A stretch of 30,856 nt of DNA from positions 1 to 30,856 of the IMG/VR virus record IMGVR_UViG_3300000116_000003, one strand, 5' to 3'. The position numbers were made by a program, and so were the translations under genes. A model generated the notes under the pieces. That model was not told the origin of the DNA and did no database searches. It saw only the letters and a program-made list of their open reading frames with translations. The DNA is from a virus. Below, in pieces: positions 10,595 to 29,197 of the stretch (positions within the stretch are counted from its first letter, which is position 1; each line of letters opens with the position of its first letter).

Positions 10595-10623
10595 TATATA
10601 ACGTATATATTCTAAATTTTGTG
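10595..10623 (-). promoter_or_regulatory. Phage-specific promoter motif copy: CACAAA-N13-ACGTTATATA (coding strand)
   Basis: 10-mer tatataacgt at 10595..10604, hexamer tttgtg at 10618..10623. The ATG at 10591 follows after 3 nt. Sits directly after the terminator at 10628..10651. Confidence 0.6.
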
Positions 10624-10627
10624 TAAT

Positions 10628-10651
10628 AAAAAAGGGGGCTTTTAAACCCCC
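10628..10651 (-). terminator. Rho-independent terminator after the tube-like gene
   Basis: Minus-strand RNA: GGGGG-UUUAAAAG-CCCCC followed by U6 (10628..10633). Confidence 0.7.
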
Positions 10652-10702
10652 TCATAATAAACTAAACCAAAATAAATAAACTCTTTGCTAATATACAAAA
10701 AA

Positions 10703-11224
10703 TTATGGAGTTGGGTTAATTGGCGATGACGAATCATCAGTTGGTAGTGTTGCTACAAAAAATGGTGGTGCTGTTTCTTGAGCTGTAAGAGTAAGTGTAA
10801 ATCCACTTAAATCCCCCATAGCTGCACCTGTAACAACTGTACCCCCTGTAACTTCGCTTCCATGGTCTTTACCTACCAAAAATCCGTTACCATTGTAATC
10901 TTCGATAACGATTTGAGGTCTGCCATGGGCTAAGAGCTTAATCTGCTCTTGAGTAGCTACATCTAAAAATGTAAATGTAACATTAAGGGTTGACTCATAA
11001 AAAGTAGTGCCATTTTCTCTTGACGAGTTAATAGCAGTTTCTAATGATGAATTACCCTTGATTTCATATTTGTAAAAAGATACGCTGTCATCTAAAGTGA
11101 TTGTACCTGCTGTGTCTGTTAAGGCAGCTGTGGTACTTGTGTAAGGGGCAAAGTAAATGTTCTTTAGCCCACCTACACCACTCTTACATGGTAACGCTCT
11201 TCCGTTTGATACTGAACAAGGCAT
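10703..11224 (-). CDS. Putative major tail (tube) protein
   Basis: 173 aa, beta-rich. N-terminal C..GVGGLKNIYFA and central GRPQIVIEDYNGNGFLVG patterns recall Bacteroidota siphophage tail-tube proteins. Bracketed by terminators directly after the capsid gene. Call is tentative. Confidence 0.4.
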   Translation of the reverse strand: MPCSVSNGRALPCKSGVGGLKNIYFAPYTSTTAALTDTAGTITLDDSVSFYKYEIKGNSSLETAINSSRENGTTFYESTLNVTFTFLDVATQEQIKLLAHGRPQIVIEDYNGNGFLVGKDHGSEVTGGTVVTGAAMGDLSGFTLTLTAQETAPPFFVATLPTDDSSSPINPTP

Positions 11225-11241
11225 AATTTTTTTGTTTTAAT

Positions 11242-11276
11242 AAAAAAGGGTAGGTAGGCACTCGGCTTACCCACCC
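11242..11276 (-). terminator. Rho-independent terminator after the major capsid gene
   Basis: Minus-strand RNA: GGGUGGGUA-loop(11 nt)-UACCUACCC, a 9-bp stem with one G-U pair, followed by U6. The equivalent pairing is A-C (a mismatch) on the plus strand, so the hairpin is minus-strand specific. Confidence 0.75.
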
Positions 11277-11299
11277 CTTTTAAGTTAGAGAATTATTGA

Positions 11300-12223
11300 T
11301 TACGAATAAAGAACGATATCCCCACCAATACCATGTTGCACACCTGCTGTATAGCGCATAACTACACGCACGTTCTGTGAGCCATCAAGGTCAGCCATAT
11401 CGATTACTTTAACTTCGTTTCTGTCATCAAGCAATCCTGTTCCAAAGAATAGGTTGGACTTCTGAGCAGCTACTGCTGTGTTATCAGCAAGACCTTTAGC
11501 TACAAAAAGATTGATACCATCAAAAGATAGTTCTCCACCCCCGTACCATTGAGTTCCTTTGTTGTCAGAACCTGCTGCACCGATAGTAGCAACAAATCCA
11601 CCCAAAGCTCTGATGTAAGCACGAGCGATGTTAGAGGAAACATAGATAGTTAAATCATCTCGCCCATATACGGCTGAAGGGATTGCATCAACGATTTTTC
11701 CGAGCTCACTGATGACATTTGTAGATGTAACTGTACCTGCTGTTACGTCAACTACGTCTGAGTCAGCAGTCAATAGAGTTTCAAAGCCATCAAAGTTACC
11801 TTCTCCTGCACTACCACTCCAAATAGAAGTTTCAGTTGCAGCAGCTACTTCAGCAGCTACACGACCGATAACGTAGTCAGAAAATAATGGTGGTAACTCA
11901 TCAAAAGCAGAGAATCCCATTTGGGCTGCCTCCCAATCCGAGTGCAATGAGGACTTGCAAAGACTCAAATTTATTTGTAATTCCGTGGGGGTCAATACTT
12001 TCTCAGTTAGAGTTAGTGTTGATGTAGAAGAATCAAAGTCGCAATCAGCAGAACGCACAAGATTTGCGAACGCACCTACTTTCATAGCAGCTTTGTACTT
12101 TACATTTGGTAAAATTGTGATAGCACCTTTGTCAAGGGTATCAGCACTTAATAAAGCAGCTCCGAGGTATTTTCCTGCAAATTCCCCTGCATAGCTACTT
12201 CCTGTAATAGTTGGATTTGGCAT
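11300..12223 (-). CDS. Major capsid protein
   Basis: 307 aa, directly after the scaffold gene and followed by a strong terminator. Ala/Gly/Thr-rich composition typical of HK97-fold capsid proteins. Confidence 0.7.
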   Translation of the reverse strand: MPNPTITGSSYAGEFAGKYLGAALLSADTLDKGAITILPNVKYKAAMKVGAFANLVRSADCDFDSSTSTLTLTEKVLTPTELQINLSLCKSSLHSDWEAAQMGFSAFDELPPLFSDYVIGRVAAEVAAATETSIWSGSAGEGNFDGFETLLTADSDVVDVTAGTVTSTNVISELGKIVDAIPSAVYGRDDLTIYVSSNIARAYIRALGGFVATIGAAGSDNKGTQWYGGGELSFDGINLFVAKGLADNTAVAAQKSNLFFGTGLLDDRNEVKVIDMADLDGSQNVRVVMRYTAGVQHGIGGDIVLYS

Positions 12224-12234
12224 TTTCTAAATAT

Positions 12235-12828
12235 TTAGTTGTTGATTAATTTTTGCATTACTCGGTCAATCGTTCCTTGCTTTCTGTTTTGTGCAAATTT
12301 TAGATTGACTTGTTTTTTAGGTTCAGGGTTATGAGTGATTGCTTCGGTAGCAGGTGTTTCGGATAGTTCCTCTTTCACTTGCTCTTCCACTTCGCTCATC
12401 TCCTCTTTCTTCTCAATCATTGTTTTGATCTCCTCAACCAATGACTTTACTTCCGCTAACTCTTCTTTAGTTGCGTACTTAGCTTCCACTTCCTCTTCAA
12501 GTTCTTCAACTTCATCAGATGCTTCTACTTCCTTTTCTTCCTCTTGGCTTTCAGATTTGATTTCGCCAATGATACCTTCTTCGCTTACAACAAGGATTTG
12601 ACCATCTTCCATTGTATACTCTCCAACGGGTACGGCTACTTTCTCATCGTCTGTAAGGATAAAGATTTCATTACCTGCTTCAAACGCTTCCGCTTCAAGG
12701 ACAGTTCCATTTTCGAGTTTCGCTTGTGCTAACTCTACTACTTGGGATTGCTCGATATTTTCTACAATATCAGCAGTATCTTCCCCAAGATAGGTTTTGA
12801 TTTTACTTAGAATTTCTGTCGCTTTCAT
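12235..12828 (-). CDS. Scaffolding protein
   Basis: Very acidic, with coiled-coil runs (EEEKEVEASDEVEELEEEVEAKYATKEELAEVKSLVEEIK). Lies between the protease and the capsid gene. Confidence 0.7.
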   Translation of the reverse strand: MKATEILSKIKTYLGEDTADIVENIEQSQVVELAQAKLENGTVLEAEAFEAGNEIFILTDDEKVAVPVGEYTMEDGQILVVSEEGIIGEIKSESQEEEKEVEASDEVEELEEEVEAKYATKEELAEVKSLVEEIKTMIEKKEEMSEVEEQVKEELSETPATEAITHNPEPKKQVNLKFAQNRKQGTIDRVMQKLINN

Positions 12829-12831
12829 AAT

Positions 12832-12860
12832 TATATAACGTGTTTAAAATTTAATTTGTA
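12832..12860 (-). promoter_or_regulatory. Phage-specific promoter motif copy: TACAAA-N13-ACGTTATATA
   Basis: 10-mer at 12832..12841, hexamer tttgta at 12855..12860. The ATG at 12828 follows after 3 nt. The motif fills the 39-nt intergenic gap. Confidence 0.6.
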
Positions 12861-12867
12861 TTTTGGG

Positions 12868-13011
12868 TTATACCTTCCCAATTCCTTGCGCTCTTAATGA
12901 GCCATCACAACATTTAATTGAGTACGTGTTATCCTCGCATAAACAGGCACGTCTTGAACCCTTAGGGCTTGTACTTGATGGTGTGATAAATCGTTTAAGT
13001 CGCTTAATCAT
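12868..13011 (-). CDS. 47-aa basic, Cys-rich micro-protein (MIKRLKRFITPSSTSPKGSRRACLCEDNTYSIKCCDGSLRAQGIGKV)
   Basis: Hand translation. Its ATG overlaps the upstream stop as ATGA. Below the ORF-track cutoff and masked by the antisense track ORF 12863..13054. Confidence 0.45.
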   Translation of the reverse strand: MIKRLKRFITPSSTSPKGSRRACLCEDNTYSIKCCDGSLRAQGIGKV

Positions 13012-13139
13012 CCTTGACCTCTGTATTTTTTCTTATATAGCTTTGAACCTTTAATGCTACTCATTTTGGTTTTAGCGTGTACACCCTTTCTGCGTACCTT
13101 TGGTTTTAATACTTTTATGTAGTCTATTCTCTTAGCCAT
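13008..13139 (-). CDS. 43-aa highly basic micro-protein (MAKRIDYIKVLKPKVRRKGVHAKTKMSSIKGSKLYKKKYRGQG)
   Basis: Hand translation. Its ATG at 13139 overlaps the protease stop (GATGGCTAA). About 40 percent K/R. Confidence 0.45.
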   Translation of the reverse strand: MAKRIDYIKVLKPKVRRKGVHAKTKMSSIKGSKLYKKKYRGQG

Positions 13140-14319
13140 CTATCGGTATGCAGTTAGGTACTTTTTTTCCATTTTTCATTTTCATACCATATTGGACGTA
13201 TCCATCTTGGCATGGCTTTTTAAGGTTGTGCTGTTCGCAAGGCATATACCATACTTTACCTTCGTATTCGTGTTCGTGGTATGATTCACAACCAATATCT
13301 TTTGCTGCTGCTATTGCTAATTCTTTTGTGGCAAACGCAAGTCTATCGTCTATAATAGCCATCTCGTCATTTAGAACCTGAGAAGCTAAATCTAATTCTC
13401 CTAATTCTTTTAACTTACTTTCAGCCCACCTTTTACCTGCTTTACCACCCCATAGAAGATATGAGATAGTACCACACGCCTTAGTGTCGCTTTCATCGTA
13501 GTACTCTTCTGCTCTGCTTAGATATGAGTACATACGTTTAATAGTTTCTTTTGAGATGGGTTTGCCCTGTGCTAATTGCTGCGCTCGTATCTTACCTACA
13601 TCAGTAGCGCATTTATTGTTTACTTTCTTGTTAAGTTCGATGCCACGCTTTGCGTTATTCTTTACACCACTTGGATAATCAGAGTAGGATTCTAATTCCT
13701 CTTTTTTGCCATCTTTGTATCTACCATCTTGCTTAACAACCCTACGGATGTATTTAAGCATATCCTGTGCTTCGTCCTCGTCAAAGTCATTGATAGGTTC
13801 TTTAGGACGTTCCATCTTGTCAGCAAAGTAACCCTCAATGGAGAACCCCTTAACTTTTCCTGTTTTTACAAACTGTTCCCATATCTCTTCGTTGTTGACC
13901 TTTACAGCCCCCATCCAAGTTCCCACAGGTACATTTAGTCCGTACTTTCTTGATTTGTCGTGTGTTTCGTCCTCTACTATCCAACTTTCTACAAGTGTTA
14001 ATCCGTTAATGCTATGTTGATGTTCTAATGTGGCTTTGTTTTGATTGCCATTTTGTAAGTATAGCTGTGATGCTTTCTCTACTGTATCTCTTGAAAAATA
14101 TATGTAATACTCTTCCTCGCCTTTACGTCTGTATATAGGTTTGTTTGGGATAAGTAAAGCACCGAGTAGGATACGCTTCTCGCCTGATACTTCTGCAAGT
14201 TTTATCTCTTCGTTTTTTAGTGCAATAAAATCCTCTTCAATGGCAGGGTTCTCTACGACAGATATCGCTTCTATCCCTGTTATCTCTTGATCGTCTAATA
14301 TAAGTTCTACGATTCGCAT
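13132..14319 (-). CDS. XkdF-like prohead protease fused to a C-terminal extension
   Basis: The N-terminal 170 aa (LLIPNKPIYR...ATLEHQH...VESWIVED...GTWMGAVKV...GFSIEGYF) fit the XkdF / Peptidase_S78_2 pattern. The C-terminal half carries LWGGKAGKRWAESK and a Cys/His-rich tail. Confidence 0.65.
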   Translation of the reverse strand: MRIVELILDDQEITGIEAISVVENPAIEEDFIALKNEEIKLAEVSGEKRILLGALLIPNKPIYRRKGEEEYYIYFSRDTVEKASQLYLQNGNQNKATLEHQHSINGLTLVESWIVEDETHDKSRKYGLNVPVGTWMGAVKVNNEEIWEQFVKTGKVKGFSIEGYFADKMERPKEPINDFDEDEAQDMLKYIRRVVKQDGRYKDGKKEELESYSDYPSGVKNNAKRGIELNKKVNNKCATDVGKIRAQQLAQGKPISKETIKRMYSYLSRAEEYYDESDTKACGTISYLLWGGKAGKRWAESKLKELGELDLASQVLNDEMAIIDDRLAFATKELAIAAAKDIGCESYHEHEYEGKVWYMPCEQHNLKKPCQDGYVQYGMKMKNGKKVPNCIPIDG

Positions 14320-14322
14320 ATA

Positions 14323-14351
14323 TATATAACGTGTTTAGTTTGGTTTTTGTA
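14323..14351 (-). promoter_or_regulatory. Phage-specific promoter motif copy: TACAAA-N13-ACGTTATATA
   Basis: 10-mer at 14323..14332, hexamer at 14346..14351. The ATG at 14319 follows after 3 nt. The motif fills the 34-nt gap after the stop at 14354. Confidence 0.6.
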
Positions 14352-14353
14352 TT

Positions 14354-15961: not shown

Positions 15962-16092
15962 TTTATTTCATTTTTAACTTGGGTAAATGCTTGTTTTAAG
16001 TTCTTAGGTAGATAGTTCTGTCCTTTAGCTATTCGGATGTTTTCCGAGCCATCTTTTACATAGGGTAGTAACTCTAAGATATTCTGTATCAT
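15937..16092 (-). CDS. 51-aa micro-ORF preceding the tape-measure-like gene
   Basis: Hand translation: MIQNILELLPYVKDGSENIRIAKGQNYLPKNLKQAFTQVKNEIKWQSRKQS. ATGA overlap with the upstream stop, and it overlaps the downstream start by 25 nt. Confidence 0.35.
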   Translation of the reverse strand: MIQNILELLPYVKDGSENIRIAKGQNYLPKNLKQAFTQVKNEIKWQSRKQS

Positions 16093-16406
16093 AATTCGTT
16101 TAATAGTTCTATGTTTGATTCGCCTGTCGCTAAGTTCGTTTCTATGCTGTTGATCTTATACCTTTTGCCATTGATATCAAACCTATCAGCAAGTGTAAAG
16201 TTTAAAAGGATTCTAAGGGGTAGATATGCCTTTACTTTTGTAAGTCTGTTCTTTGTATTGAACACGTTTGTAATATAGGTACTATAATAGTTTTGAAACA
16301 AAGTACCTGTAAAACTACTATCGCCTGTATATTCGTTTTTCTCTAACTTAAAATTGATATTGGCAGTAGATGTACCTGAGCTAAAAGAAACGCTGTTAGA
16401 AGGCAT
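16089..16406 (-). CDS. Hypothetical structural protein (105 aa)
   Basis: Start moved to the ATG at 16406 (MPSNSVSF...), 7 nt after the upstream stop at 16414. The track start at 16457 would overlap by 44 nt. Confidence 0.45.
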   Translation of the reverse strand: MPSNSVSFSSGTSTANINFKLEKNEYTGDSSFTGTLFQNYYSTYITNVFNTKNRLTKVKAYLPLRILLNFTLADRFDINGKRYKINSIETNLATGESNIELLNEL

Positions 16407-16413
16407 ATTTACG

Positions 16414-18381
16414 CTACCTGATTGATGAATGTGTGCCATACGTGCCATCAGGATCAACTGTATCTATGAAACTGATAACCTCACTTGGGTTTGTATATAC
16501 AGGATAAAAGAGTATTGGCTTTCCTATGTAGCTTTCTTGGTTATCATCTACACTATAACCCCATTGTATGCCTGTTTGATTTTCTGTATCTAAATCAATA
16601 AGTCTTTCGTATTTAAGATGTCCAAACGGTGCTACTACGTTATAAAGACCACCATCTACTATATTACCATTATCGTCTGTTTGGCTGTAATTAGTTTTTG
16701 CCCACTCTTGATTAAATAGTTGATTATGCGTAGCAGCTAAAAATGTATCTGTATCTTCATAACTAAACGACACCTCTCTATAAGGTAGTGATGCATTAAC
16801 TTGGCTGCTGTTTACATCTACAAACTCACTTATATCGTATGCTGTGCTTACTGACTTTTTGTTTGCATAAAAGTTATCTAAGGTGTCAACGTATATCGTG
16901 CCATTATTCTCTACAAAAGTTGTGAGATTAAACATCTTAAATAATCCTGTCAAAAAGTCTATTACTTTAATTTCAGGTATCTGTTCTGTAATTACAAACT
17001 CAAAATCAGCAGGTGCAGAAAACGAACCTGTATTATAACTTTCAATAGATGTTAAATTATATGTTATTTCATATTCAATGCTTGTAAAACTTAATGCACT
17101 TGTATAAGTTAAGGTTGCTGAGTATTGCGCATCATCTTGAACGTATGAATATAAATTTATGCTTTTAGTTGTGGACGTGATTCCTGATTCAGAATATATC
17201 TCTGTGCCATTACGAGTTATAGATATATCGTATGGTGTTGATGCAGTTCGTGTTAAAGATAAAGTAAAATTGTTTACTAAATTAGCGTCTGTTATTAATA
17301 GTGTAGATGAGTTTATAATTTCAGACACGCCACCTGATGCTGTTGACCATCCATTAATAAGTTTAGTTGATTGGTCTAATTGACCGCCACTTGACACTAC
17401 ACCTTTTTTTCTATGTAACCACATAAATAAATCATAGTAAGCATCATTTGAAGTACTAAAGAAATCTGTGCTAAAGTTTATATCATATCTGCTCTCAATG
17501 GCTAATATAATTTTATGCACTCTAAGTGCGTATTTTAATTCGTTCCATGCAAGTCCGTGATTATGCGAACCCCCTCCTGTGTGATTGAATAGATTGCCTG
17601 TGTTAGGCGTGTTATCCCCACTATCGTAGTAAAGTCTTTTTGTGTGAGTAATAATAGGCACTACTACATCGTTTGATGCAGGGTTTCTTTGTAATGCAGT
17701 TTTTATGTTTGCAGATGCAAAAGTTTCATTTAAGCTATTAAGACTTGTAAGTGAGTTTAGCTTATCTTCCCCTAATAGGTCTTTAAGCGTTACTGTGTTA
17801 CCAAAGAACGTAATACGATAAGACTTAGGTCTGCGGTTTTTTAAATCTACACCTTCTAACTTAATCTTACCTTTTTTAAATGGTAAGTTGTTTAATTCAA
17901 GTATGGCATCTTTCTTTGTTCTCGCATCAAAGCCCCCTGTAATATCAAAGTTATAATAGTGCTTGAATATCTTGTTGTTAGTCTTAGATGCAGGTAGGGT
18001 AAACGTCTTTGTAAACTCCGTGAACACCTTAGCGATATCCTTTACGTTTTGTATAGACTGAGTGATGCTTACAGATTCATCCTTAAACATATCTACTCTA
18101 TCTGTTTTTTTACCTATTATGACATATTGAGCCTGTTGATCGCCTTGCCCATATATAGTGTTAGATAATGTAAGTTTAGTTTCACTATCTACGCTTACGA
18201 TTGTAGCAGTAAAGACATCGTTAAATTCATTTGTGTTGGTTATCTCATAACCTTGTTTTACACCTGAGCTTATAAAGGTTGCGTTACTATCATTTAGTTC
18301 TGTACTAACCTGTTGGGTTTGTTGTGTAAAACCACCCAACCTTAAAACTATTTCACTTATATATAATTGAATGCTCTGCAC
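16414..18381 (-). CDS. Large tail/baseplate structural protein (655 aa)
   Basis: Size and position in the tail block. Conserved-looking N-terminal block RVDMFKDESVSITQSIQNVKDIAKVFTEFTKTFTLPAS. No enzyme motifs seen. Confidence 0.4.
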   Translation of the reverse strand: MQSIQLYISEIVLRLGGFTQQTQQVSTELNDSNATFISSGVKQGYEITNTNEFNDVFTATIVSVDSETKLTLSNTIYGQGDQQAQYVIIGKKTDRVDMFKDESVSITQSIQNVKDIAKVFTEFTKTFTLPASKTNNKIFKHYYNFDITGGFDARTKKDAILELNNLPFKKGKIKLEGVDLKNRRPKSYRITFFGNTVTLKDLLGEDKLNSLTSLNSLNETFASANIKTALQRNPASNDVVVPIITHTKRLYYDSGDNTPNTGNLFNHTGGGSHNHGLAWNELKYALRVHKIILAIESRYDINFSTDFFSTSNDAYYDLFMWLHRKKGVVSSGGQLDQSTKLINGWSTASGGVSEIINSSTLLITDANLVNNFTLSLTRTASTPYDISITRNGTEIYSESGITSTTKSINLYSYVQDDAQYSATLTYTSALSFTSIEYEITYNLTSIESYNTGSFSAPADFEFVITEQIPEIKVIDFLTGLFKMFNLTTFVENNGTIYVDTLDNFYANKKSVSTAYDISEFVDVNSSQVNASLPYREVSFSYEDTDTFLAATHNQLFNQEWAKTNYSQTDDNGNIVDGGLYNVVAPFGHLKYERLIDLDTENQTGIQWGYSVDDNQESYIGKPILFYPVYTNPSEVISFIDTVDPDGTYGTHSSIR

Positions 18382-20523: not shown

Positions 20524-20604
20524 TGAATTTACTTTTTATTTGTCTTGCTTCTAACTCTGCTTTGTCTTTCATAAAACTTAGGGCATATAAACATTGATGA
20601 GCAT

Positions 20605-21252
20605 TTAATTTAGTGATATCTTCAAATCGTCCAATATCCCCCTGAGCGAGTGCGTAAAGTGATTGATACCACCCCCATTTTCGTCCGAAATTAGATGCAG
20701 AGCTAAGTTCATCTCCTCGTTCCCCAAATAGTTCAGCATAGCTTTCGATAAGTCCATCCCTAAATTGTAAAAAAAAACAATAGAACCTAAGACTGCACTC
20801 ATAGGCATATCTTTCATCTGCTCTGCGTTATCTACGCTATAATCCTCTACGTTGTACTTATCGCCATATTGATTCGTGATTGGTCTGTATAGAACATTCA
20901 TAGCCCTATGCATATTATTCCAATCGCCTATAAACGTATCTAAGTCTATGTATTCGCCAAAGCTCATGTCATCTAACTTAGGTATAAACCCATACTGCGT
21001 ACCTTTCATCTTAAACATAGTTTGCAGCTTAGGTGTGTTGTTTAGCATCTCAGTCAATATCTGCACTATGCTGTTAATATCAGTAGCCCTCATAAGCAGG
21101 ACGTGATCACCACGTATCCCACAAAAGATTTCTATCATCTTAACAGCTAAAAACTTCTCATCCTCGTTGCTATCTTGTATCTTTAAATACCTTTGATATT
21201 GGTCTAAGGTTATCTCATTAAGTGATTCAGGGATTTCTATATCTACTTTCAT
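20605..21252 (-). CDS. Hypothetical protein (215 aa), first gene after terL
   Basis: ORF preceded by a phage promoter motif 5 nt from its ATG. No confident family recognised. Confidence 0.4.
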   Translation of the reverse strand: MKVDIEIPESLNEITLDQYQRYLKIQDSNEDEKFLAVKMIEIFCGIRGDHVLLMRATDINSIVQILTEMLNNTPKLQTMFKMKGTQYGFIPKLDDMSFGEYIDLDTFIGDWNNMHRAMNVLYRPITNQYGDKYNVEDYSVDNAEQMKDMPMSAVLGSIVFFYNLGMDLSKAMLNYLGNEEMNLALHLISDENGGGINHFTHSLRGILDDLKISLN

Positions 21253-21257
21253 ATATT

Positions 21258-21286
21258 TATATAACGTAAAAAAAAATGATTTTATC
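21258..21286 (-). promoter_or_regulatory. Phage-specific promoter motif copy: GATAAA-N13-ACGTTATATA
   Basis: 10-mer at 21258..21267. The hexamer tttatc at 21281..21286 overlaps the terL stop. The ATG at 21252 follows after 5 nt. Confidence 0.55.
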
Positions 21287-22737: not shown

Positions 22738-22761
22738 CTTGATAAAAGTTGATTATTCAAG

Positions 22762-22790
22762 TATATAACGTATTTATTCAGGATTTTGTG
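22762..22790 (-). promoter_or_regulatory. Phage-specific promoter motif copy: CACAAA-N13-ACGTTATATA
   Basis: 10-mer at 22762..22771, hexamer tttgtg at 22785..22790. The terS ATG is 24 nt downstream. Confidence 0.6.
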
Positions 22791-23224: not shown

Positions 23225-23355
23225 AATCGTTTGTATCTAAGGTCAGGTCTATCTTCATCACTAAAGTGTTCTATCATTCTATCACAATACCTTAATATCT
23301 TAGGATCATCGGTTGTTGTTTTCCAATGTTTGTAATATCGTATCATGTGTATCAT
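23221..23355 (-). CDS. 44-aa micro-ORF (MIHMIRYYKHWKTTTDDPKILRYCDRMIEHFSDEDRPDLRYKRL)
   Basis: Hand translation. TAATG overlap with the methyltransferase stop. Confidence 0.4.
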   Translation of the reverse strand: MIHMIRYYKHWKTTTDDPKILRYCDRMIEHFSDEDRPDLRYKRL

Positions 23356-23960
23356 TAGAATAGTCTTTGTTGTTGTTTATGTTGTTGTATTCGTTTCATG
23401 GCAGCTTCGTAATAGTCTTTGTCGAGTTCGCACCCTGTAAGCTCATATCCTAAATTATGACAAGCTATTGCTATTGAGCCACTACCTAAGTGGGTGTCGA
23501 GTATCTTGTCGTTTTCTTTGGCGTAATTCATAAGTAACCACTCATACAACTTAATTGGCTTTTGTGTAGGATGAAACCTTTGACTTCTGTCCATTGACAA
23601 ATGATGCTTATATGAACGTAAAGCTCTATTGAAAGATGTGAACGCAAGTTCGCCATCAGAAAAATCACTTGTACCATTCATCTTATCCCAATACACCCAA
23701 CCCATTGATGGCTTTTTTATTTTATCAATCATATAGTTTGCACCCCATATAATCTGATTCTTTGACACCCTAAATAGCTCGTCAAAAAATTCTTGTTTCG
23801 GAGTTTCACTATCCCATTGTTTGCCTTTGTTTTTATATTTTCCACTTCCTAATTGCATTTTATTTACCTCAATGCCATAAGGTGGGTCAACAATAGCAAG
23901 GTCGAAGTGGTTATTCTCATACCTTGCCATTAAACCCATACAGTCCTCGTTTGTTATCAT
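23355..23960 (-). CDS. DNA methyltransferase, beta-class N6_N4_Mtase (probably N6-adenine); no cognate endonuclease recognised
   Basis: Motif IV IVDPPYGI lies near the N-terminus and motif I LDTHLGSGSIAIAC near the C-terminus. Confidence 0.85.
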   Translation of the reverse strand: MITNEDCMGLMARYENNHFDLAIVDPPYGIEVNKMQLGSGKYKNKGKQWDSETPKQEFFDELFRVSKNQIIWGANYMIDKIKKPSMGWVYWDKMNGTSDFSDGELAFTSFNRALRSYKHHLSMDRSQRFHPTQKPIKLYEWLLMNYAKENDKILDTHLGSGSIAIACHNLGYELTGCELDKDYYEAAMKRIQQHKQQQRLF

Positions 23961-24430
23961 TCTACTGAGATTGCGTTTGCATCGTATATAGTCGCTTGTT
24001 GGTTTCTCGGTTGTATATCAAACCCTACCAACATAGCTTCTAAGCGTGTTTTAACGTCATCTCTGCGTTCCTCAGGTACTTGGTCTATAAGTGAGTACAA
24101 AGGGTTCTCTATTCGCTTCTTAATCATCTCTATTGGTTCGTCCTTTATATTGTAGAATATGTTATACACCTTATCAAAGTCTGCTTTGAAGTCTTTGTCT
24201 TGTTTGTAGTAATGGGTAAACCTATCTAAGTGATAGAGGACAGTTGCGTGGTTTTGCTTAAATGATTGTGAGATATGTCTTTTAATCACTTCTTGCTCTC
24301 TCATTATTCTATAAGCCATCATCCTACCCCTTACTGTTTTGTGCTTACGATTGTTCTCAGTTATATCTATACCTAAGTGTTCTTTGATGATTTTCTCTAA
24401 TCGTGTCTTAATGTCTTTTGTGTATGTCAT
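23957..24430 (-). CDS. DnaA domain-IV-like helix-turn-helix protein
   Basis: RKHKTVRGRMMAYRIMRE....ISQSFKQNHATVLYHLDRF...DKDFKADFDKV parallels E. coli DnaA R.[42 protein letters not shown]...DIKEDFSNL. Confidence 0.55.
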   Translation of the reverse strand: MTYTKDIKTRLEKIIKEHLGIDITENNRKHKTVRGRMMAYRIMREQEVIKRHISQSFKQNHATVLYHLDRFTHYYKQDKDFKADFDKVYNIFYNIKDEPIEMIKKRIENPLYSLIDQVPEERRDDVKTRLEAMLVGFDIQPRNQQATIYDANAISVE

Positions 24431-25266
24431 CTGATAGTGCTTAATTTATTTTTAACAAATTGATTGTAATATGTAACTACGTTATCCTTTGTGGTATTTA
24501 AGTATGGTGGCATACTTCTGTTAAGAAACAGAGAAAACTTAACCAACTCTTTTAACATCTTATCTACATTGTTTGTTTTGCGAATTACCTTATTAATGAT
24601 AACTGCTAAAGCACACTTAGTCAGCTTGTGTATCATTTTGTCCCACTCAAGATATTTGTTAATCTCATCTATGTAGGACGATTGCAATAGATAGTACAAT
24701 CTCAATCGTGTTGATGAATTGCTTTGTATTTTTGCGTTCCCTGTTCTAAAAGAATCGTTTGATGATTGAGTGAATAGCATCCTGATTGATGCGTGTGAGA
24801 ATACACCATTGATACCCATAGCTTCATCAAGTTGCTTAGGTGTTTCAGGGCTGTTGTATATCTTATTCCAAACAAACGTATAAAAGTTATCATTATCAAA
24901 AGGGTTCACACTTCGCTTAGTTGCGTGAAACCTTATATAGTCCTGTATCTGTAATGGCTTTCGTATGTTGTTAAGTGATAGAAAAACATCCTCAGGTTTT
25001 ACCTTTGTGTCGTTTGGCACTACAACAGCGTGTATCTCTTGCTCAGGCATCTTCTCAATTACAGAGCTTAACCTTTGGTATCCATCCTCTACTGAGTATA
25101 ACCCTTTGCGTATTTCATATAATGTTACTGCTGTTAAAAACCCATTCGCTTTGATTGAGTTGTTTAAGTTGCTTATGTGATGTTTCTCTTTCCATCTTTG
25201 ATGTAGGGGGATCGTTATTTGATTTTTTAAATCCCCTGCTTTAAATGTTCTTATCTCTGTTCTCAT
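24427..25266 (-). CDS. DUF262 / ParB-Srx superfamily protein (GmrS-type N-terminal domain only)
   Basis: IPLHQRW matches the DUF262 IPxFQRxYxW box. VEDGYQRLSSV matches the DGQQRLTT box. Confidence 0.6.
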   Translation of the reverse strand: MRTEIRTFKAGDLKNQITIPLHQRWKEKHHISNLNNSIKANGFLTAVTLYEIRKGLYSVEDGYQRLSSVIEKMPEQEIHAVVVPNDTKVKPEDVFLSLNNIRKPLQIQDYIRFHATKRSVNPFDNDNFYTFVWNKIYNSPETPKQLDEAMGINGVFSHASIRMLFTQSSNDSFRTGNAKIQSNSSTRLRLYYLLQSSYIDEINKYLEWDKMIHKLTKCALAVIINKVIRKTNNVDKMLKELVKFSLFLNRSMPPYLNTTKDNVVTYYNQFVKNKLSTIR

Positions 25267-25267
25267 G

Positions 25268-26041: not shown

Positions 26042-26160
26042 CTTAAGTCTGCTTCAAAACAAGTTCCACTACAATACAACTCGCTCTCGTTTATGGGTGT
26101 ACCACACATTGAGCATTGGTTTGACTCTTCGTTATAATAGAGCCATTTACTATAATCCAT
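26038..26160 (-). CDS. 40-aa zinc-ribbon-like micro-ORF (MDYSKWLYYNEESNQCSMCGTPINESELYCSGTCFEADLR)
   Basis: Hand translation. CxxC...CxxxC pattern. ATGA overlap with the exonuclease start. Confidence 0.45.
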   Translation of the reverse strand: MDYSKWLYYNEESNQCSMCGTPINESELYCSGTCFEADLR

Positions 26161-26431
26161 ATTTATTCTCTTTTAAATTCTCTAACTCTTTCTCTACTCG
26201 TCTTGCACGTTCCACAGCTCTAATAACTGATTGACGTTCCTCTCGTAAAATACGCTTAAAGCTGTATCGTTCTAATTCTAATTGATTAATGTAGAACACG
26301 AGTCGTACAGTTGCTTCTGATATCTTTTGCAGCTCCTCGTTGTCTGACTTCTTTTGCCACTTGCTGATTGTTTCTAAAATCTCAGCAGAGTCAATCATAT
26401 ATTGTAACTGACCAAAATCCATATCAAGCAT
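26150..26431 (-). CDS. Hypothetical coiled-coil protein (93 aa)
   Basis: ORF with a charged heptad-like C-terminal half. Confidence 0.5.
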   Translation of the reverse strand: MLDMDFGQLQYMIDSAEILETISKWQKKSDNEELQKISEATVRLVFYINQLELERYSFKRILREERQSVIRAVERARRVEKELENLKENKYGL

Positions 26432-26471
26432 ATAATAATCCCTACAAGTCCTATCTGTGCGAAATCTATTT

Positions 26472-26612
26472 TCATAATCCTAAAAACTTTTTGGCTTTAG
26501 ACCACCACACATTTTGCGTGTAGTATAAGTTAAACTCTGTTTGAGTCATTACTTCGACCTTATTGCCTTTATTGACGATGTATAATCCTGTGGGTGTTAT
26601 TTTAAAAACCAT
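26472..26612 (-). CDS. Hypothetical 46-aa protein (MVFKITPTGLYIVNKGNKVEVMTQTEF...); shortened version of track ORF 26472..26666
   Basis: The internal ATG at 26612 avoids the N-terminal 18 codons, which overlap the membrane micro-ORF 26597..26731 in another frame. Confidence 0.35.
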   Translation of the reverse strand: MVFKITPTGLYIVNKGNKVEVMTQTEFNLYYTQNVWWSKAKKFLGL

Positions 26613-26731
26613 GCTCTTAGTATATAGGTTAATAATAAGATATCTAAAATAGCAATCCAAAAGCATAGAGCTATCAATGCGATATACATTGTACCCTCTA
26701 TGTCGTTAAAGTAATTGATTAATTTTCTCAT
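26597..26731 (-). CDS. 44-aa membrane micro-ORF (MRKLINYFNDIEGTMYIALIALCFWIAILDILLLTYILRAWFLK)
   Basis: Hand translation. Strong TM segment. The ATG is 18 nt downstream of a host-type promoter -7 box. Confidence 0.4.
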   Translation of the reverse strand: MRKLINYFNDIEGTMYIALIALCFWIAILDILLLTYILRAWFLK

Positions 26732-26749
26732 ATAATTGTTTTAATGTTA

Positions 26750-26781
26750 TACAAATGTAATAAAAAAATGTTAATAAAGCA
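26750..26781 (-). promoter_or_regulatory. Bacteroidota sigma-A-type promoter (TTTG-N20-TACATTTG)
   Basis: On the coding strand, TTTG (26781..26778) and TAcaTTTG (26757..26750) match the published -33 TTTG / -7 TAnnTTTG consensus. Located in the gap after the stop at 26785. Confidence 0.5.
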
Positions 26782-26784
26782 AAT

Positions 26785-27423
26785 TCATATATTTAAATGC
26801 ATTATCGTATTAATCTTGTTTATTGTTTCTTGCTTATCTACAATCCCTTTATCATCGTAGTAAACATAAACGTAAGGGGCGAACATACGTGCGTAGTTAT
26901 CGTTCTTTTCTTTGTGGTTTGCCTTTGCTCTGTTTTGATAAGCTGTATTCATCATCTTGTATGAGATAGGTTTTATCTGTATCCCTAAGACAATGTAATC
27001 ATCTTTTATAACCTCAGCATCTATGCAGTAAGTGTGGTCTTTCTCAAAGTCTGTTTTAACTATATCTATATTGGTAAACTCTGCTTTGAGTTCGTCTATT
27101 ATAGTTAGTTCCTGTTGGTATCCGTTCCACGTCTGTCCTATCACACGGTAGAAAACATACTGCTTTATATCTTCCATTGATACCCATTGATTCTTTAAAT
27201 GTATCCTTTGGCTTACATAGGATAGCTGTTTAAAACCTACTGAGCATTTATACGAGTGTTCCCAATCTTTATGCGTTTTGCTTTCGTGGTGCTTATAGAA
27301 GTCGCTTATGAGCTTCATACACTTACCTACATATTTAGTCTGAAAAAAATGATTGACACTCTTGTCTTTGTTTAGCTTTCTGTACAGGGCATCGTCTAAT
27401 GGTTGCTTATACTTATAAGGCAT
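26785..27423 (-). CDS. Putative PD-(D/E)XK-fold nuclease-like protein
   Basis: TIIDELK ... YCIDAEV ... LGIQIKP fits an E...D-x(n)-Q-x-K arrangement. No family confidently recognised. Confidence 0.35.
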   Translation of the reverse strand: MPYKYKQPLDDALYRKLNKDKSVNHFFQTKYVGKCMKLISDFYKHHESKTHKDWEHSYKCSVGFKQLSYVSQRIHLKNQWVSMEDIKQYVFYRVIGQTWNGYQQELTIIDELKAEFTNIDIVKTDFEKDHTYCIDAEVIKDDYIVLGIQIKPISYKMMNTAYQNRAKANHKEKNDNYARMFAPYVYVYYDDKGIVDKQETINKINTIMHLNI

Positions 27424-27670
27424 ATATCTTGTTTATTTGGTATATCCATTCTTTAATACGCTTAGGCGAACAGGTGCATGGTTCGTGGTACTTATGAGCA
27501 TATAGGTCAGCGTGTAATTCGCATATCAGTTTGTAATGCTTCTCGGTCATATTACCACTAAGAACCTCAGCATAGGGCTTCCACCTTTGTCTTTGCTCAT
27601 CGGTCATTTGTCCTTTTGGCATACTAAAACTTGAAAGAATTCCAATTGTTTCTGCGCTCATCGCACCCAC
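27413..27670 (-). CDS. Hypothetical protein; first gene after the sigma-proximal promoter motif
   Basis: The track start at 27670 is a GTG; an ATG at 27661 (MSAETIG...) is an alternative. Contains HEPCTCSP. Confidence 0.45.
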   Translation of the reverse strand: MGAMSAETIGILSSFSMPKGQMTDEQRQRWKPYAEVLSGNMTEKHYKLICELHADLYAHKYHEPCTCSPKRIKEWIYQINKIYAL

Positions 27671-27704
27671 AATCTCTACCCCTAAGTTTGGATATCTTCT
27701 TTAC

Positions 27705-27732
27705 TATATAACGTAATCCTGTGTATTTTGTA
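27705..27732 (-). promoter_or_regulatory. Phage-specific promoter motif copy: TACAAA-N12-ACGTTATATA
   Basis: 10-mer at 27705..27714, hexamer tttgta at 27727..27732. Lies in the 81-nt gap directly downstream of the sigma gene. Confidence 0.6.
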
Positions 27733-27751
27733 AAGTAAAATACTAAATCCC

Positions 27752-28249
27752 CTAATCCCATTCTATATTATTTTTAATTAAATCCTTAACTCTTTTGTAT
27801 GTAAAGTACAGAGAATAATAAGATATGTTTGTCTTACGTGCCAACTCTGCAATAGACATCCCACCACTAATTATTTCAAACACAGTCCTATCATACCAAA
27901 AAGTTTTATCGAGTAGATTATCCATTTGCTTCATAGCATCGCAAACATCTATCTCTTTTGATTCGCCCTGATCATCTAAATAGTCAGCAAGGTTATCAAT
28001 GTTAGTCTTAATGATTTTTTTCTCTTTTCGATGCAAGTCTATAAACAAAGCCCTAAGAGTTCGGTAGATGTACATATGATTAATATCATCCTTAAAAGAT
28101 ATATCTACACCCTTTGTAATGAGAGTGTGCATACGGATATACATTTCTTGGACTAAATCTTCAGCGATAGATTCTTTGCACCCAAAGGATAACACTATCC
28201 TGTGCCAATCATCGTGCTTCTCTGCAATCTTTTCAAGTGTGGTTTTCAA
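27752..28249 (-). CDS. ECF-like RNA polymerase sigma factor
   Basis: Region-2-like IAEDLVQEMYIRMH and YIYRTLRALFIDLHRKEKK. Region-4 HTH-like FWYDRTVFEIISGGMSIAELARKTNISYYSLYFTYKRVKDLIK. Apparent TTG start overlapping the helicase stop (TTTTGA). Confidence 0.7.
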   Translation of the reverse strand: MKTTLEKIAEKHDDWHRIVLSFGCKESIAEDLVQEMYIRMHTLITKGVDISFKDDINHMYIYRTLRALFIDLHRKEKKIIKTNIDNLADYLDDQGESKEIDVCDAMKQMDNLLDKTFWYDRTVFEIISGGMSIAELARKTNISYYSLYFTYKRVKDLIKNNIEWD

Positions 28250-29154: not shown

Positions 29155-29166
29155 TTGGTAAAGTTA

Positions 29167-29191: not shown

Positions 29192-29197
29192 CTATGA

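What the first reader, a model, noticed from the sequence alone, without database searches (positions are those of the whole stretch)
10595..28249. Six oriented intergenic copies of ACGTTATATA with a fixed-spacing upstream hexamer: candidate regulon of the phage-encoded ECF-like sigma factor
The 10-mer TATATAACGT (plus strand; ACGTTATATA on the coding strand) occurs at 10595, 12832, 14323, 21258, 22762 and 27705. Every copy is in a short gap between minus-strand genes, and every copy has the same orientation as the genes. I saw no full copy inside a coding region.

In five copies a hexamer lies exactly 13 nt upstream: TACAAA twice, CACAAA twice and GATAAA once. In the sixth copy TACAAA lies at 12 nt.

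Chance is an unlikely explanation. For uniform composition, one given 10-mer is expected far less than once in about 61.7 kb of two-strand sequence (4^10 is about 1.05 million). AT-richness raises that figure, but not to six exact, oriented, intergenic hits.

The CGT core recalls the -10 elements of ECF sigma factors. The window encodes a 165-aa protein (27752..28249) with sigma region-2-like and region-4-like segments. One motif copy lies within 40 nt downstream of that gene. The other five head terS, the gene after terL, the protease, the scaffold/capsid block and the portal block. That layout fits an early-to-late sigma cascade.

Two gaps (12829..12867 and 14320..14353) are filled almost exactly by the motif.
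Basis: partly seen in the sequence, partly recalled or inferred. Interest (0 to 1): 0.8.

Follow-up and report, generated by a model that had tools for sequence, protein, structure and literature searches.

The report
Phage sigma-factor promoters abutting start codons
Six identical short DNA signals in this marine flavobacterial phage genome are very probably the promoters read by the phage's own ECF-type sigma factor, and several sit so close to the start codon that the messages should have no leader; the general strategy is already known from other phages.

Summary
ACGTTATATA occurs six times in gene-sense orientation (0.19 expected). There are no one-mismatch sense copies, and every copy lies in a gap between minus-strand genes. 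It is the -10 half of a bipartite element, [T/C]ACAAA-N13-ACGTTATATA.

That element is conserved at orthologous positions in hundreds of related uncultured marine phage contigs. A version of it (AAAACAAA-N13/14-CGTTAATATA) occurs seven times in the cultured Nonlabens phage P12024S.

The 165-aa protein is a divergent ECF (group 4) sigma factor by HMM, profile and predicted fold. The geometry matches solved ECF open complexes: GTT at -11..-9 and AC at -31/-30. Under that register, transcription would start on the A of the ATG at three window sites and at six of seven P12024S sites, giving leaderless mRNAs.

Different sigma clades carry different genome-wide -10 variants. One clade has TerL 94-99% identical to the window's but T-10 changed to A or C at all three visible promoters, together with a cluster of sigma-2 substitutions.

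No transcription start site or RNA polymerase binding was measured. This is a new member of a known kind (phiEco32-like phage sigma regulons), with a possibly new leaderless twist.

The parts
27752..28249 (-). Gene for a 165-aa ECF-type (group 4) sigma factor with a TTG start. It is the last gene of the replication (early) module.
   Evidence: Pfam Sigma70_r2, 24.2 bits. TIGR02937, E 5.8e-8 over residues 14-160. AF2 model pLDDT 78.8 with two helical domains. Foldseek top hits are ECF sigmas. Profile A2 hits Mtb SigE and S. coelicolor SigR sigma-2. Homologs start with M or L at the same residue.
27705..27732 (-). P6: TACAAA-N12-ACGTTATATA. It lies 37 nt after the sigma stop codon and heads an 85-aa gene (GTG start at 27670) plus the DNA-metabolism block. 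Predicted +1 is at 27701, giving a 31-nt leader.
   Evidence: Conserved after the sigma gene in relatives; the Q64 clade has TCGCTATATA here.
22762..22790 (-). P5: CACAAA-N13-ACGTTATATA upstream of the 84-aa putative terS (22737-22483) and TerL (22493-21282). Predicted +1 is G at 22758, giving a 21-nt leader.
   Evidence: Conserved in relatives; the Q64 clade has ACGATATATA.
21258..21286 (-). P4: GATAAA-N13-ACGTTATATA in the 29-nt gap after TerL. The hexamer overlaps the TerL stop codon. It heads a 215-aa gene (ATG at 21252). Predicted +1 is at 21254, giving a 2-nt leader.
14323..14351 (-). P3: TACAAA-N13-ACGTTATATA, filling the 34-nt gap before the XkdF-type protease gene (14319-13132). Predicted +1 is the A of the ATG at 14319.
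12832..12860 (-). P2: TACAAA-N13-ACGTTATATA, filling the 39-nt gap before the scaffold-like gene (12828-12235) and the capsid-like gene (12223-11300). Predicted +1 is the A of the ATG at 12828.
10595..10623 (-). P1: CACAAA-N13-ACGTTATATA directly after a terminator. It heads a 115-aa gene (10591-10244) and the portal gene. Predicted +1 is the A of the ATG at 10591.
10632..10653 (-). Intrinsic-terminator-like hairpin (GAGGGGGTTTAAAAGCCCCCTT plus a T-run) immediately upstream of P1. This terminator-then-promoter arrangement is conserved in relatives while the stem sequence varies.
11252..11276 (-). Second terminator-like hairpin, after the capsid-like gene.
26752..26783 (-). For contrast: a host-type (Bacteroidota sigma-A-like) promoter candidate, TTTG-N20-TACATTTG, before a 64-aa gene. 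It is a different promoter class from the six copies.
   Evidence: Conserved in L243 and L242. Consensus from PMC9723704.

Best explanation
The six copies are the -10 halves of six promoters recognised by host core RNA polymerase carrying the phage's own ECF-type sigma factor (27752-28249).

How it is proposed to work:
- The sigma gene is the last gene of the early replication module. That module is presumably transcribed by the host sigma-A holoenzyme.
- Once made, the sigma directs transcription from a bipartite promoter. Its sigma-4 domain would read the ACAAA block (AC at -31/-30). Its sigma-2 domain would read CGTT(ATA), with G-11, T-10 and T-9.
- The six promoters sit in front of the DNA-metabolism block, the terminase genes, and four structural modules.
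- At three sites (P1-P3) the predicted start is the A of the ATG, and at P4 it is 2 nt upstream. These modules would therefore be expressed as leaderless or near-leaderless mRNAs.

What is shown: the motif statistics, its orientation and placement, deep positional conservation, the sigma fold and family, the ECF-like geometry, and clade-specific covariation between sigma and motif.

What is inferred: that this sigma binds core polymerase and these sites, where transcription starts, and the timing.
For: 1. Statistics and placement. There are six exact sense copies against 0.19 expected, no near-miss sense copies, and all are intergenic. P1 follows an intrinsic terminator.

2. Conservation. Related contigs carry the 10-mer only in sense orientation. 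In 298 distinct upstream regions anchored only on TTATA, a CAAAA block appears at a fixed distance and C, G, T precede the anchor in 75-88% of them. Profiles anchored only on the ATG recover cAAA and cgTTATA at P1-P4. At P1 the terminator stems change with compensatory substitutions while the motif stays fixed, down to about 30% identity of the downstream protein. A few lineages keep the bipartite motif 22-30 nt from the ATG, so the motif is not tied to the start codon.

3. Independent replicate. The cultured Nonlabens phage P12024S (TerL 54% identical, sigma gp33 27%) has seven AAAACAAA-N13/14-CGTTAATATA sites abutting ATGs. The loose bipartite pattern (ACAAA-N11-16-CGTTA) finds six of them against 0.9 expected, all in sense orientation.

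4. Sigma identity.

5. Geometry. In the Mtb sigma-H open complex, GGAACA is followed by a 17-bp spacer and then G-11 T-10 T-9 (PMC6411747). The same register puts AC at -31/-30 in 4 of 6 window sites and 6 of 7 P12024S sites. [quoted passage not shown]

6. Covariation. Each sigma clade has its own genome-wide -10 variant. The Q64 clade has TerL 94-99% identical to the window's and an otherwise identical post-TerL gap, but T-10 is changed to A there and to A or C at the other two visible promoters. Of its 14 diagnostic sigma substitutions, 10 lie in residues 39-64. Residue 64 aligns with sigma-H I85, which stacks on T-10. Q64 goes with A at -10 in 18 of 18 distinct sites from three sigma lineages.

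7. Leaderless sub-claim. Under the sigma-H register, +1 is the A of the ATG at P1-P3 and at 6 of 7 P12024S sites, with T at -1 conserved and ATG start codons at all four ATG-abutting sites P1-P4.
Against: - No transcription start site, RNA polymerase binding or expression data exist for this phage or for P12024S.
- The sigma assignment is weak at sequence level. Sigma70_r2 is only just at threshold, TIGR02937 is below its cut-off, no Pfam Sigma70_r4 hit was found, single-sequence and A1-profile PDB searches were negative, and Foldseek E-values are only 2e-3 to 0.1.
- The -35-like ACAAA is not the classical GGAAC. P4 has AT instead of AC.
- Covariation is confounded by phylogeny. The close Q64 clade is one tight clade. 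My first residue-level prediction (Y58/K63 implies non-T) failed in L243/L244. I64 lineages also have A at -10, so no single-residue code holds.
- One close relative (L172) has ACTATATATA at P2, with no CG.
- Leaderless mRNAs are rare in flavobacteria (5.5%, PMC9723704). The +1 prediction borrows a register from an actinobacterial sigma.
Confidence: 0.8

Rival explanations
1. The sites are promoters, but they are read by a host-encoded ECF sigma factor. Bacteroidota carry many of these. The phage sigma would then have another role or another target.
For: The CGT-type -10 is generic for ECF sigmas, and flavobacteria have several (PMC9723704). Bacteroidetes average 22.5 ECFs per genome (PMC7826278). 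No binding data tie the phage sigma to these sites.
Against: The -10 variant tracks the phage sigma clade, not the rest of the phage genome. TerL is 94-99% identical while T-10 is changed at all three visible promoters together with sigma-2 substitutions. Phages from very different lineages, and probably different hosts, each carry their own sigma and their own variant. No other repeated oriented motif that could serve as the phage sigma's target was seen in the window.
Confidence: 0.07
2. The element is an operator for a phage DNA-binding regulator that is not a sigma factor, for example the ParB/T5orf172-like protein at 24427-25266 or a small ORF. That regulator would activate or repress transcription by the host polymerase.
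For: Late activators with sites upstream of terS are common in phages (RinA family, PMC3152322, listed). The window encodes other putative DNA-binding proteins.
Against: The element is asymmetric and strictly oriented, and it is bipartite with an ECF-like 17-bp spacer in the sigma-H convention. At P1-P3 there is no room for a separate host -7 box (TAnnTTTG) between the element and the ATG. The variable base maps to the position read by the sigma-2 pocket. NCBIfam gave no RinA or ArpU hit for the proteins tested.
Confidence: 0.06
3. The element acts at the RNA level within polycistronic transcripts, as a translation-initiation signal or a processing site. This could matter in a host that lacks Shine-Dalgarno pairing.
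For: At P1-P4 the distance from the element to the ATG is fixed, and this spacing is conserved. Bacteroidota use non-Shine-Dalgarno signals upstream of the start codon (PMC6847099 abstract).
Against: P5 and P6, and whole lineages at P2, keep the same bipartite element 21-31 nt from the start codon. The upstream ACAAA block keeps a fixed distance to the -10 part, not to the ATG. P1 lies directly after a terminator, where a new transcript must begin if the downstream genes are to be expressed.
Confidence: 0.04
4. The copies are chance matches or recently duplicated sequence with no function, for example recombination scars at module boundaries.
For: The genome is AT-rich, and the sites do lie at module boundaries.
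Against: Only 0.19 copies are expected and 0 of 100 shuffles reach 6. The flanks are unrelated. The element is conserved across hundreds of divergent contigs and in P12024S, while neighbouring bases and terminator stems drift.
Confidence: 0.02

Closest known systems
phiEco32 / 7-11 group coliphages: a phage-encoded ECF-like sigma (gp36) with its own middle and late promoters (consensus tAATGTAtA)
   Same: The phage encodes a small divergent sigma. A short, nearly exact motif recurs upstream of the middle and late gene blocks. Early genes use host promoters (PMC4331800). The fold search also hits the ECF sigma of the phiEco32-like phage GAP52.
   Different: There is no detectable sequence relationship beyond the shared fold. 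The host phylum is different (Bacteroidota, not Proteobacteria). The motif is different. Here there is a clear -35-like block at fixed spacing. Here the motif abuts the start codon. No anti-sigma or host-polymerase inhibitor was identified here.
Cellular ECF (group 4) sigma promoters, e.g. Mtb sigma-H / S. coelicolor SigR (GGAACA-N17-GTT) and the F. psychrophilum SM6 class (CGT box)
   Same: The promoter is bipartite with a rigid spacer, has a C-G-T-T type -10 and an AC-containing -35 in the same register, and shows high sequence stringency (PMC6411747; PMC9723704).
   Different: The -35 is A-rich (AAAAT[A/G]CAAA) rather than GGAAC. The -10 is extended by ATA(TA). No anti-sigma partner is evident. 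The sigma is phage-borne and outside current ECF classifications, which did not capture phage ECFs (PMC7826278).
T4 gp55/gp33 late promoters (TATAAATA) (from my own knowledge)
   Same: A phage-encoded sigma-like factor redirects the host core polymerase to an AT-rich -10-type motif in front of late genes.
   Different: As I recall it, gp55 is a sigma-2-only fragment that needs gp33 and the sliding clamp, and T4 late promoters have no -35 element. Here the protein has both sigma-2-like and sigma-4-like domains and the promoter has a -35-like block.
Bacillus phage SPO1 gp28 and gp33/34 sigma cascade (from my own knowledge; mentioned in the PMC13401047 abstract)
   Same: The temporal switch is made by replacing the host sigma with phage sigmas.
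   Different: SPO1 uses two successive phage sigmas. Here only one sigma gene and one phage-specific promoter class were found.
RinA / ArpU / Ltr late activators of Gram-positive temperate phages
   Same: They are small sigma-related or HTH proteins that turn on the packaging and morphogenesis genes from a site upstream of terS (PMC3152322).
   Different: That system has a single late promoter and an activator acting with the host sigma. Here there are six dispersed promoters with full ECF-like geometry. There was no NCBIfam RinA or ArpU hit.

Membership tests
ECF (group 4) sigma-70-family sigma factor | Sigma-2 domain (region 2) present | tested here: met
   Pfam Sigma70_r2: residues 14-78, 24.2 bits against a cut-off of 24.0. 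Profile A2 hits Mtb SigE (E 0.03) and SigR sigma-2 (E 0.07) with the conserved Y-x-Y-R...I-D-x-x-R-K register. This is marginal at sequence level but consistent.
ECF (group 4) sigma-70-family sigma factor | Sigma-4 domain with a helix-turn-helix for the -35 element | tested here: inconclusive
   There is no Pfam Sigma70_r4 or r4_2 hit, only HTH_psq at residues 123-155. The TIGR02937 alignment runs to residue 160. Foldseek aligns 155-175 columns to full-length ECF sigmas. So a C-terminal HTH domain is present, but its assignment as sigma-4 rests on fold.
ECF (group 4) sigma-70-family sigma factor | Only two domains: no region 1.1, no region 3, no non-conserved region | tested here: met
   The protein is 165 aa. 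The AF2 model shows two helical bundles joined by a low-confidence linker at residues 80-100.
ECF (group 4) sigma-70-family sigma factor | Binds core RNA polymerase and confers promoter specificity | not testable with these tools
   This needs pull-down and in vitro transcription experiments.
ECF (group 4) sigma-70-family sigma factor | Passes the curated family threshold (NCBIfam sigma70-ECF) | tested here: not met
   TIGR02937 scores 32.5 bits against a cut-off of 42.9, with E 5.8e-8. The protein is divergent, as is reported for phage ECFs in general (PMC7826278).
ECF-type promoter | Conserved -10 containing CGT or GTT | tested here: met
   All six sites contain CGTT. Across 298 related upstream regions, C is present in 75%, G in 80% and T in 88%.
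ECF-type promoter | Conserved -35 with an AAC-like core at a rigid spacing (about 16-17 bp) | tested here: met
   ACAAA lies at a fixed distance in 5 of 6 sites (1 nt shorter in P6). AC falls at -31/-30 in the sigma-H register in 4 of 6 sites. The CAAAA block emerges without being anchored. The core is (T/C)AC rather than AAC.
ECF-type promoter | Transcription starts about 9 nt downstream of the last T of GTT | not testable with these tools
   Only a prediction is possible: +1 at 10591, 12828, 14319, 21254, 22758 and 27701.
Bacteroidota sigma-A promoter (-33 TTTG / -7 TAnnTTTG) | A TAnnTTTG box about 7 nt upstream of the start site | tested here: not met
   None of the six elements contains it. 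A separate match exists at 26752-26783. The consensus is from PMC9723704.
phiEco32-type phage sigma system | Sigma homologous to gp36, and promoters matching tAATGTAtA | tested here: not met
   tblastn of the sigma against 50,697 phage records finds only Nonlabens phage P12024S. The motif is different. There is fold-level similarity only.
RinA / ArpU late transcriptional regulators | Match to the RinA or ArpU family models, with a single site upstream of terS | tested here: not met
   No such NCBIfam hit appears among the 16 families matched. There are six dispersed sites, not one.

The most novel reading that the evidence does not exclude
A large, globally distributed family of marine flavobacterial phages (hundreds of IMG/VR contigs plus cultured Nonlabens phage P12024S) fuses an ECF-sigma promoter to the start codon. 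Its structural modules would then be made as leaderless mRNAs beginning with AUG, in a phylum where leaderless messages are rare and Shine-Dalgarno pairing is not used. The natural sigma-2 / -10 variants (CGT, CGA, CTA, GTTT) would form a ready-made set of orthogonal sigma/promoter pairs and a specificity code for position -10.
Probability: 0.45. Interest if true: 0.65.

Novelty: new member of a known kind. Interest (0 to 1): 0.55.

Why it matters
If confirmed, this gives the transcription programme of an abundant and so far uncharacterised group of marine Bacteroidota phages. One phage sigma would switch on everything downstream of its own gene from a handful of very stringent promoters.

It also supplies a cultured test system: phage P12024S on Nonlabens/Persicivirga sp. 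IMCC12024. The genome record for that phage lists the homologous gene (gp33) only as a hypothetical protein containing Sigma-70 region 2.

The predicted promoter-to-AUG fusion would be a clean natural case for studying leaderless translation on Bacteroidota ribosomes.

The clade-specific -10 variants, paired with sigma-2 substitutions, could be mined for orthogonal expression parts for Bacteroidota, where genetic tools are limited.

For genome annotation, the motif marks operon starts and true start codons in these phages.

Tried and rejected
- **PDB sequence searches.** A single-sequence phmmer search and the close-homolog profile A1 found no sigma. Only the broader profile A2 reached SigE and SigR.
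- **Failed residue prediction.** I predicted that H58Y/R63K determine the non-T motif. This failed: P0070 (Y58/K63; L243/L244) has ACGTTATATA.
- **Residue 64 as a code.** Q64 goes with A at -10 in 18 of 18 sites, but two I64 lineages also have A, so residue 64 alone is not a sufficient code.
- **Over-strict site pattern.** CAAA-N14-NNN-TATA-N5-ATG was too strict for sigma-anchored fragments and returned almost nothing. I replaced it with the orthologous post-TerL gap and ATG-anchored sites.
- **Over-loose site pattern.** A loose bipartite pattern in the MAG-derived loci L246-L248 gave mostly noise. Only single clear sites were seen (L247 at about 9865; L248 at about 17490).
- **Distant sigma relatives.** L040-L051 (27-40% identity) belong to another phage family with other repeats. 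They were not informative for this motif.
- **Sigma-70 scan.** The generic sigma-70 promoter scan was at background: 63 found against 68.8 expected.
- **Known RNAs.** There are no Rfam families and no tRNAs in the window.
- **Nucleotide search.** Megablast against phage records found only a 167-nt patch.
- **Upstream-ORF script.** My first script missed many loci. I replaced it with tblastn anchoring.
- **Literature.** Searches found no description of this motif or of P12024 transcription.

Full report
**1. Observation**

The 10-mer TATATAACGT (ACGTTATATA on the coding strand) is present exactly at 10595, 12832, 14323, 21258, 22762 and 27705. Dinucleotide-preserving shuffles give 0.19 copies on average and never more than 2.

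With up to two mismatches allowed, the gene-sense orientation has six exact copies and no one-mismatch copy. All seven one-mismatch hits are in the opposite orientation. So this is a sharply defined, oriented element and not the tail of an AT-rich background.

All ORFs that make up a coherent gene map are on the minus strand. Each copy lies in a gap between them. A looser bipartite pattern, ACAAA-N11-16-CGTTA, gives five hits against 0.64 expected, all in sense orientation.

**2. Context**

The window has an exact 105-nt terminal overlap. It is therefore a complete, circularly assembled genome of about 30.75 kb, transcribed in one direction. Gene order, read along the minus strand, is:

- An AT-rich region.
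- NinG-like nuclease, SSB, DnaB-like helicase, and the 165-aa sigma-like protein.
- [P6] An 85-aa protein, MjaI-like nuclease, exonuclease, ParB-like protein, DNA methyltransferase and small ORFs.
- [P5] An 84-aa putative terS and TerL.
- [P4] A block of PHROG-unknown structural-size proteins, including a 535-aa protein.
- [P3] XkdF-type protease.
- [P2] Scaffold-like and capsid-like proteins, a terminator, a 173-aa protein and a second terminator.
- [P1] A 115-aa protein, the portal, tail proteins and further small ORFs after them.

The nearest cultured relatives by TerL are Nonlabens (Persicivirga) phages P12024S/L (54% identity) and Riemerella phages. Sigma homologs at 41-46% identity lie on contigs binned with Saprospiraceae, Wocania and Flavobacteriales MAGs. 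A perfect Bacteroidota sigma-A-type promoter, TTTG-N20-TACATTTG, sits at 26752-26783. The host is therefore very probably a marine flavobacterium. There are no Rfam families and no tRNAs in the window.

**3. The protein**

The evidence that the 165-aa product is a divergent ECF sigma factor is as follows.

- It hits Pfam Sigma70_r2 at threshold: 24.2 bits against a cut-off of 24.0.
- It hits NCBIfam sigma70-ECF over residues 14-160 with E 5.8e-8, which is below the curated cut-off.
- Some JGI homologs are named sigma24-family.
- Sequence searches of PDB with the single protein or a close-homolog profile were negative.
- A broader profile that includes homologs at 28-49% identity reaches Mtb SigE (E 0.03) and S. 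coelicolor SigR sigma-2 (E 0.07).
- An AlphaFold model (pLDDT 78.8) has two helical domains with a flexible linker.
- Its Foldseek hits in PDB are almost exclusively ECF sigmas aligned over 155-175 columns: Mtb sigma-L, sigma-H and SigE, E. coli sigma-E, SigW, SigK, AlgU and CnrH. E-values are modest, 2e-3 to 0.1.
- In BFVD it matches phage ECF-type sigmas, including that of the phiEco32-like phage GAP52.

I conclude it is a divergent group-4 sigma. This agrees with the published remark that phage ECFs escape standard classification (PMC7826278).

**4. Comparative evidence that the element is functional**

*Orientation.* IMG/VR holds hundreds of related contigs, many about 30-31 kb long. In loci whose sigma is about 85% identical or more, ACGTTATATA occurs only in sense orientation. 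It is the top repeated 10-mer in several relatives.

*Positional conservation.* I located orthologs of the six downstream genes by tblastn and extracted their upstream regions.

- At P1, about 80 distinct sequences keep the same order: terminator hairpin, T-run, [T/C]ACAAAA, N13, (A)CGTTATATA, 3 nt, ATG. This holds down to about 30% identity of the downstream protein.
- The terminator stems drift with compensatory changes while the motif stays fixed.

*Logos.* A logo of 298 distinct regions anchored only on TTATA shows an unanchored CAAAA block at -18..-14 relative to the C of CGT. C, G and T precede the anchor in 75%, 80% and 88% of regions. Profiles anchored only on the ATG recover both blocks at P1-P4.

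*Independence from the start codon.* Some lineages keep the bipartite element 22-30 nt from the ATG. The element is therefore a unit of its own and not a start-codon context.

**5. Independent replicate in a cultured phage**

Nonlabens phage P12024S has an MCP 31% identical to the window's. Its sigma, gp33, is 27% identical and is annotated only as a hypothetical protein containing Sigma-70 region 2. It lies in the same place, before the terminase module.

The phage has seven sites of the form AAAACAAA-N13/14-CGTTAATATA that abut ATGs. The loose pattern finds six of them against 0.9 expected, all in sense orientation. I found no paper that discusses transcription of this phage.

**6. Geometry**

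In the Mtb sigma-H open complex, the -35 element GGAACA is followed by a 17-bp spacer and then G-11 T-10 T-9. T-9 is flipped into the sigma-2 specificity loop. ECF sigmas are unusually intolerant of changes in sequence and spacer (PMC6411747). That intolerance fits the exactness of the six copies.

Placing the window's GTT at -11..-9 has two consequences.

- The AC of [T/C]ACAAA falls at -31/-30, the register of the AC in GGAACA. This holds in 4 of 6 window sites and 6 of 7 P12024S sites.
- The predicted +1 falls on the A of the ATG at P1, P2 and P3, and 2 nt before it at P4. At P5 and P6 the predicted leaders are 21 and 31 nt. In P12024S, 6 of 7 sites put +1 on the A of the ATG.

The base before the ATG is a conserved T at P1-P4, giving a pyrimidine(-1)/purine(+1) pair. 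All four ATG-abutting genes start with ATG, whereas the P6 gene, with its predicted 31-nt leader, starts with GTG.

Leaderless mRNAs are only 5.5% of mapped transcripts in F. psychrophilum (PMC9723704). If the prediction holds, this would be a phage-specific enrichment. It remains an inference from a register borrowed from another phylum.

**7. Sigma/promoter covariation**

*The close Q64 clade.* A tight clade of sigmas (about 80% identical to the window's) has TCGCTATATA after the sigma gene and ACGATATATA at the terS and post-TerL sites. In other words, T-10 is replaced at all three visible promoters.

In these genomes TerL is 94-99% identical to the window's. The post-TerL gap is identical except for that one base.

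The clade differs from all 27 T-type sigmas at 14 diagnostic residues. Ten of these lie in residues 39-64 (sigma-2), and two lie in the C-terminal helix of the sigma-4-like domain.

*Structural mapping.* The HMMER alignment to SigR (WLYRILTNTFINSYRK against YIYRTLRALFIDLHRK) maps sigma-H residues onto the phage sigma as follows:

| sigma-H residue | Phage sigma residue |
|---|---|
| W81 | Y60 |
| Y83 | Y62 |
| I85 | T64 |
| N88 | A67 |
| I91 | I70 |
| N92 | D71 |
| K96 | K75 |

In sigma-H, I85 stacks on the T-10 base.

*Wider survey.* Across 138 sigma-bearing loci, each clade has its own variant:

| Sigma clade | -10 variant |
|---|---|
| Window clade and the 63%-identity clade (residue 64 = T, V or M) | ACGTTATATA |
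| Close Q64 clade (~80-81% identity) and the L269 type (~68%) | ACGATATATA |
| L248-like Q64 clade (about 40% identical to the window sigma) | AACTATATA |
| "CYKVLRGIY" clade | (C/T/A)GTTTATATAT |
| P12024S | CGTTAATATA |

Q64 goes with A at -10 in 18 of 18 distinct ATG-abutting sites. T, M or C at residue 64 goes with CGT at 8 of 10 sites.

*Caveats.*

- My first prediction, from residues 58 and 63, failed.
- Two I64 lineages also have A at -10.
- The data are not phylogenetically independent.
- The Q64 sigma-2 segment may have spread by recombination.

I therefore claim covariation at the level of clades, and not a residue code.

**8. Mechanism and rivals**

The best explanation is a one-step sigma switch. 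Early genes, including the sigma gene, are read by the host holoenzyme. The phage sigma then drives six stringent promoters covering DNA metabolism, packaging and morphogenesis. Terminators partition the late region (confidence 0.8).

The rivals are a host ECF sigma, a non-sigma regulator, an RNA-level signal, and chance. Each is contradicted by at least one observation: the clade-specific covariation, the lack of room for a host -7 box, the sites far from any start codon, or the shuffle statistics.

**9. Comparison with known systems, and verdict**

Phage-encoded sigmas with private promoters are well established. The phiEco32 sigma with its TAATGTATA promoters is the nearest analogue (PMC4331800). 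T4 gp55 and the SPO1 sigmas are others that I cite from my own knowledge.

This case differs in several respects: the host phylum, the consensus sequence, a full ECF-like bipartite geometry, and the likely fusion of promoter to start codon. I found no description of it in the searchable literature.

I rate it a new member of a known kind. The comparative support is solid, the interest is moderate, and there is a clear experimental path through P12024S.

Noticed in passing
window 1-105 and 30752-30856: The two ends are an exact 105-nt direct overlap, so the window is a complete circularly assembled genome of about 30.75 kb. The AT-rich stretch at about 105-193 then lies just upstream of the first early gene (ATG at 30828) and is the likely early-promoter or origin region.
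   Followed up: partly
window 8470-10247 (-): The portal gene is split into two ORFs in different frames (10247-9549 and 9357-8470). The 191-nt 'gap' between them is open in the frame of the downstream ORF. In 14 relatives the two parts are in one frame. This is probably a 1-nt indel near 9550, either an assembly error or a real frameshift.
   Followed up: partly
window 16089-18381 (-): The phrog_38559 protein is split into a 655-aa ORF and an overlapping 122-aa ORF in different frames. In relatives the two parts are in frame. This is a second apparent frameshift in the same assembly.
   Followed up: partly
window 26752-26783 (-): TTTG-N20-TACATTTG is a perfect match to the Bacteroidota sigma-A consensus. 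It lies before a 64-aa gene inside the block downstream of P6, and it is conserved in L243 and L242. It suggests that this small gene is expressed independently of the phage sigma.
   Followed up: partly
L032, L248, L254, L269, L247, L295: the gap after TerL: In several lineages the post-TerL gap holds a host-type TTTG...TAnnTTTG promoter instead of the sigma-type element. The promoter class has been swapped at the same position.
   Followed up: no
L242 at about 2300-2340: A relative with a sigma 63% identical has an extra ACGTTATATA copy upstream of NinG, at the head of the early/replication module that contains the sigma gene. This could give positive feedback. The window has no such copy.
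   Followed up: no
window 26785-27423 (-) and 23355-23960 (-): A protein with an MjaI restriction-endonuclease domain (E 3e-9) and a DNA methyltransferase are both encoded in the P6-driven block. This may be a phage-borne restriction-modification or anti-defence pair.
   Followed up: no
window 13408-13574: This is the only nucleotide-level match to cultured phages: 76% identity to Flavobacterium phages vB_FspS_lillamy, morran, sniff and snork. It falls in the XkdF-protease gene here but is annotated 'DNA methyltransferase' in those records. Either those proteins are fusions or the annotation is doubtful.
   Followed up: no
window 29155-29197 and 30149-30266 (-): Two further GC-rich hairpins followed by T-runs lie inside the early region, before the helicase gene and before the 60-aa gene. 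They were outside the range of the terminator scan. The second is followed by TATATTTA, a near match to the host -7 box.
   Followed up: no
L041, L043, L044, L049, L050 (distant sigma relatives, 27-35% identity): This is a different phage family. It has tandem ACATAGTGTAATATA-like repeats upstream of a 575-aa gene, and a recurring CAGTTG(C/G)... element in intergenic gaps. These may be the origin/iterons and the promoter class of that family's own sigma.
   Followed up: no
L172 (MCP 96% identical to the window), scaffold-gene upstream region: A very close relative has ACTATATATA instead of ACGTTATATA at P2 and ACGATATATA at P1. It probably belongs to a Q64-type sigma lineage, but its sigma is not on the 7-kb contig.
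   Followed up: no
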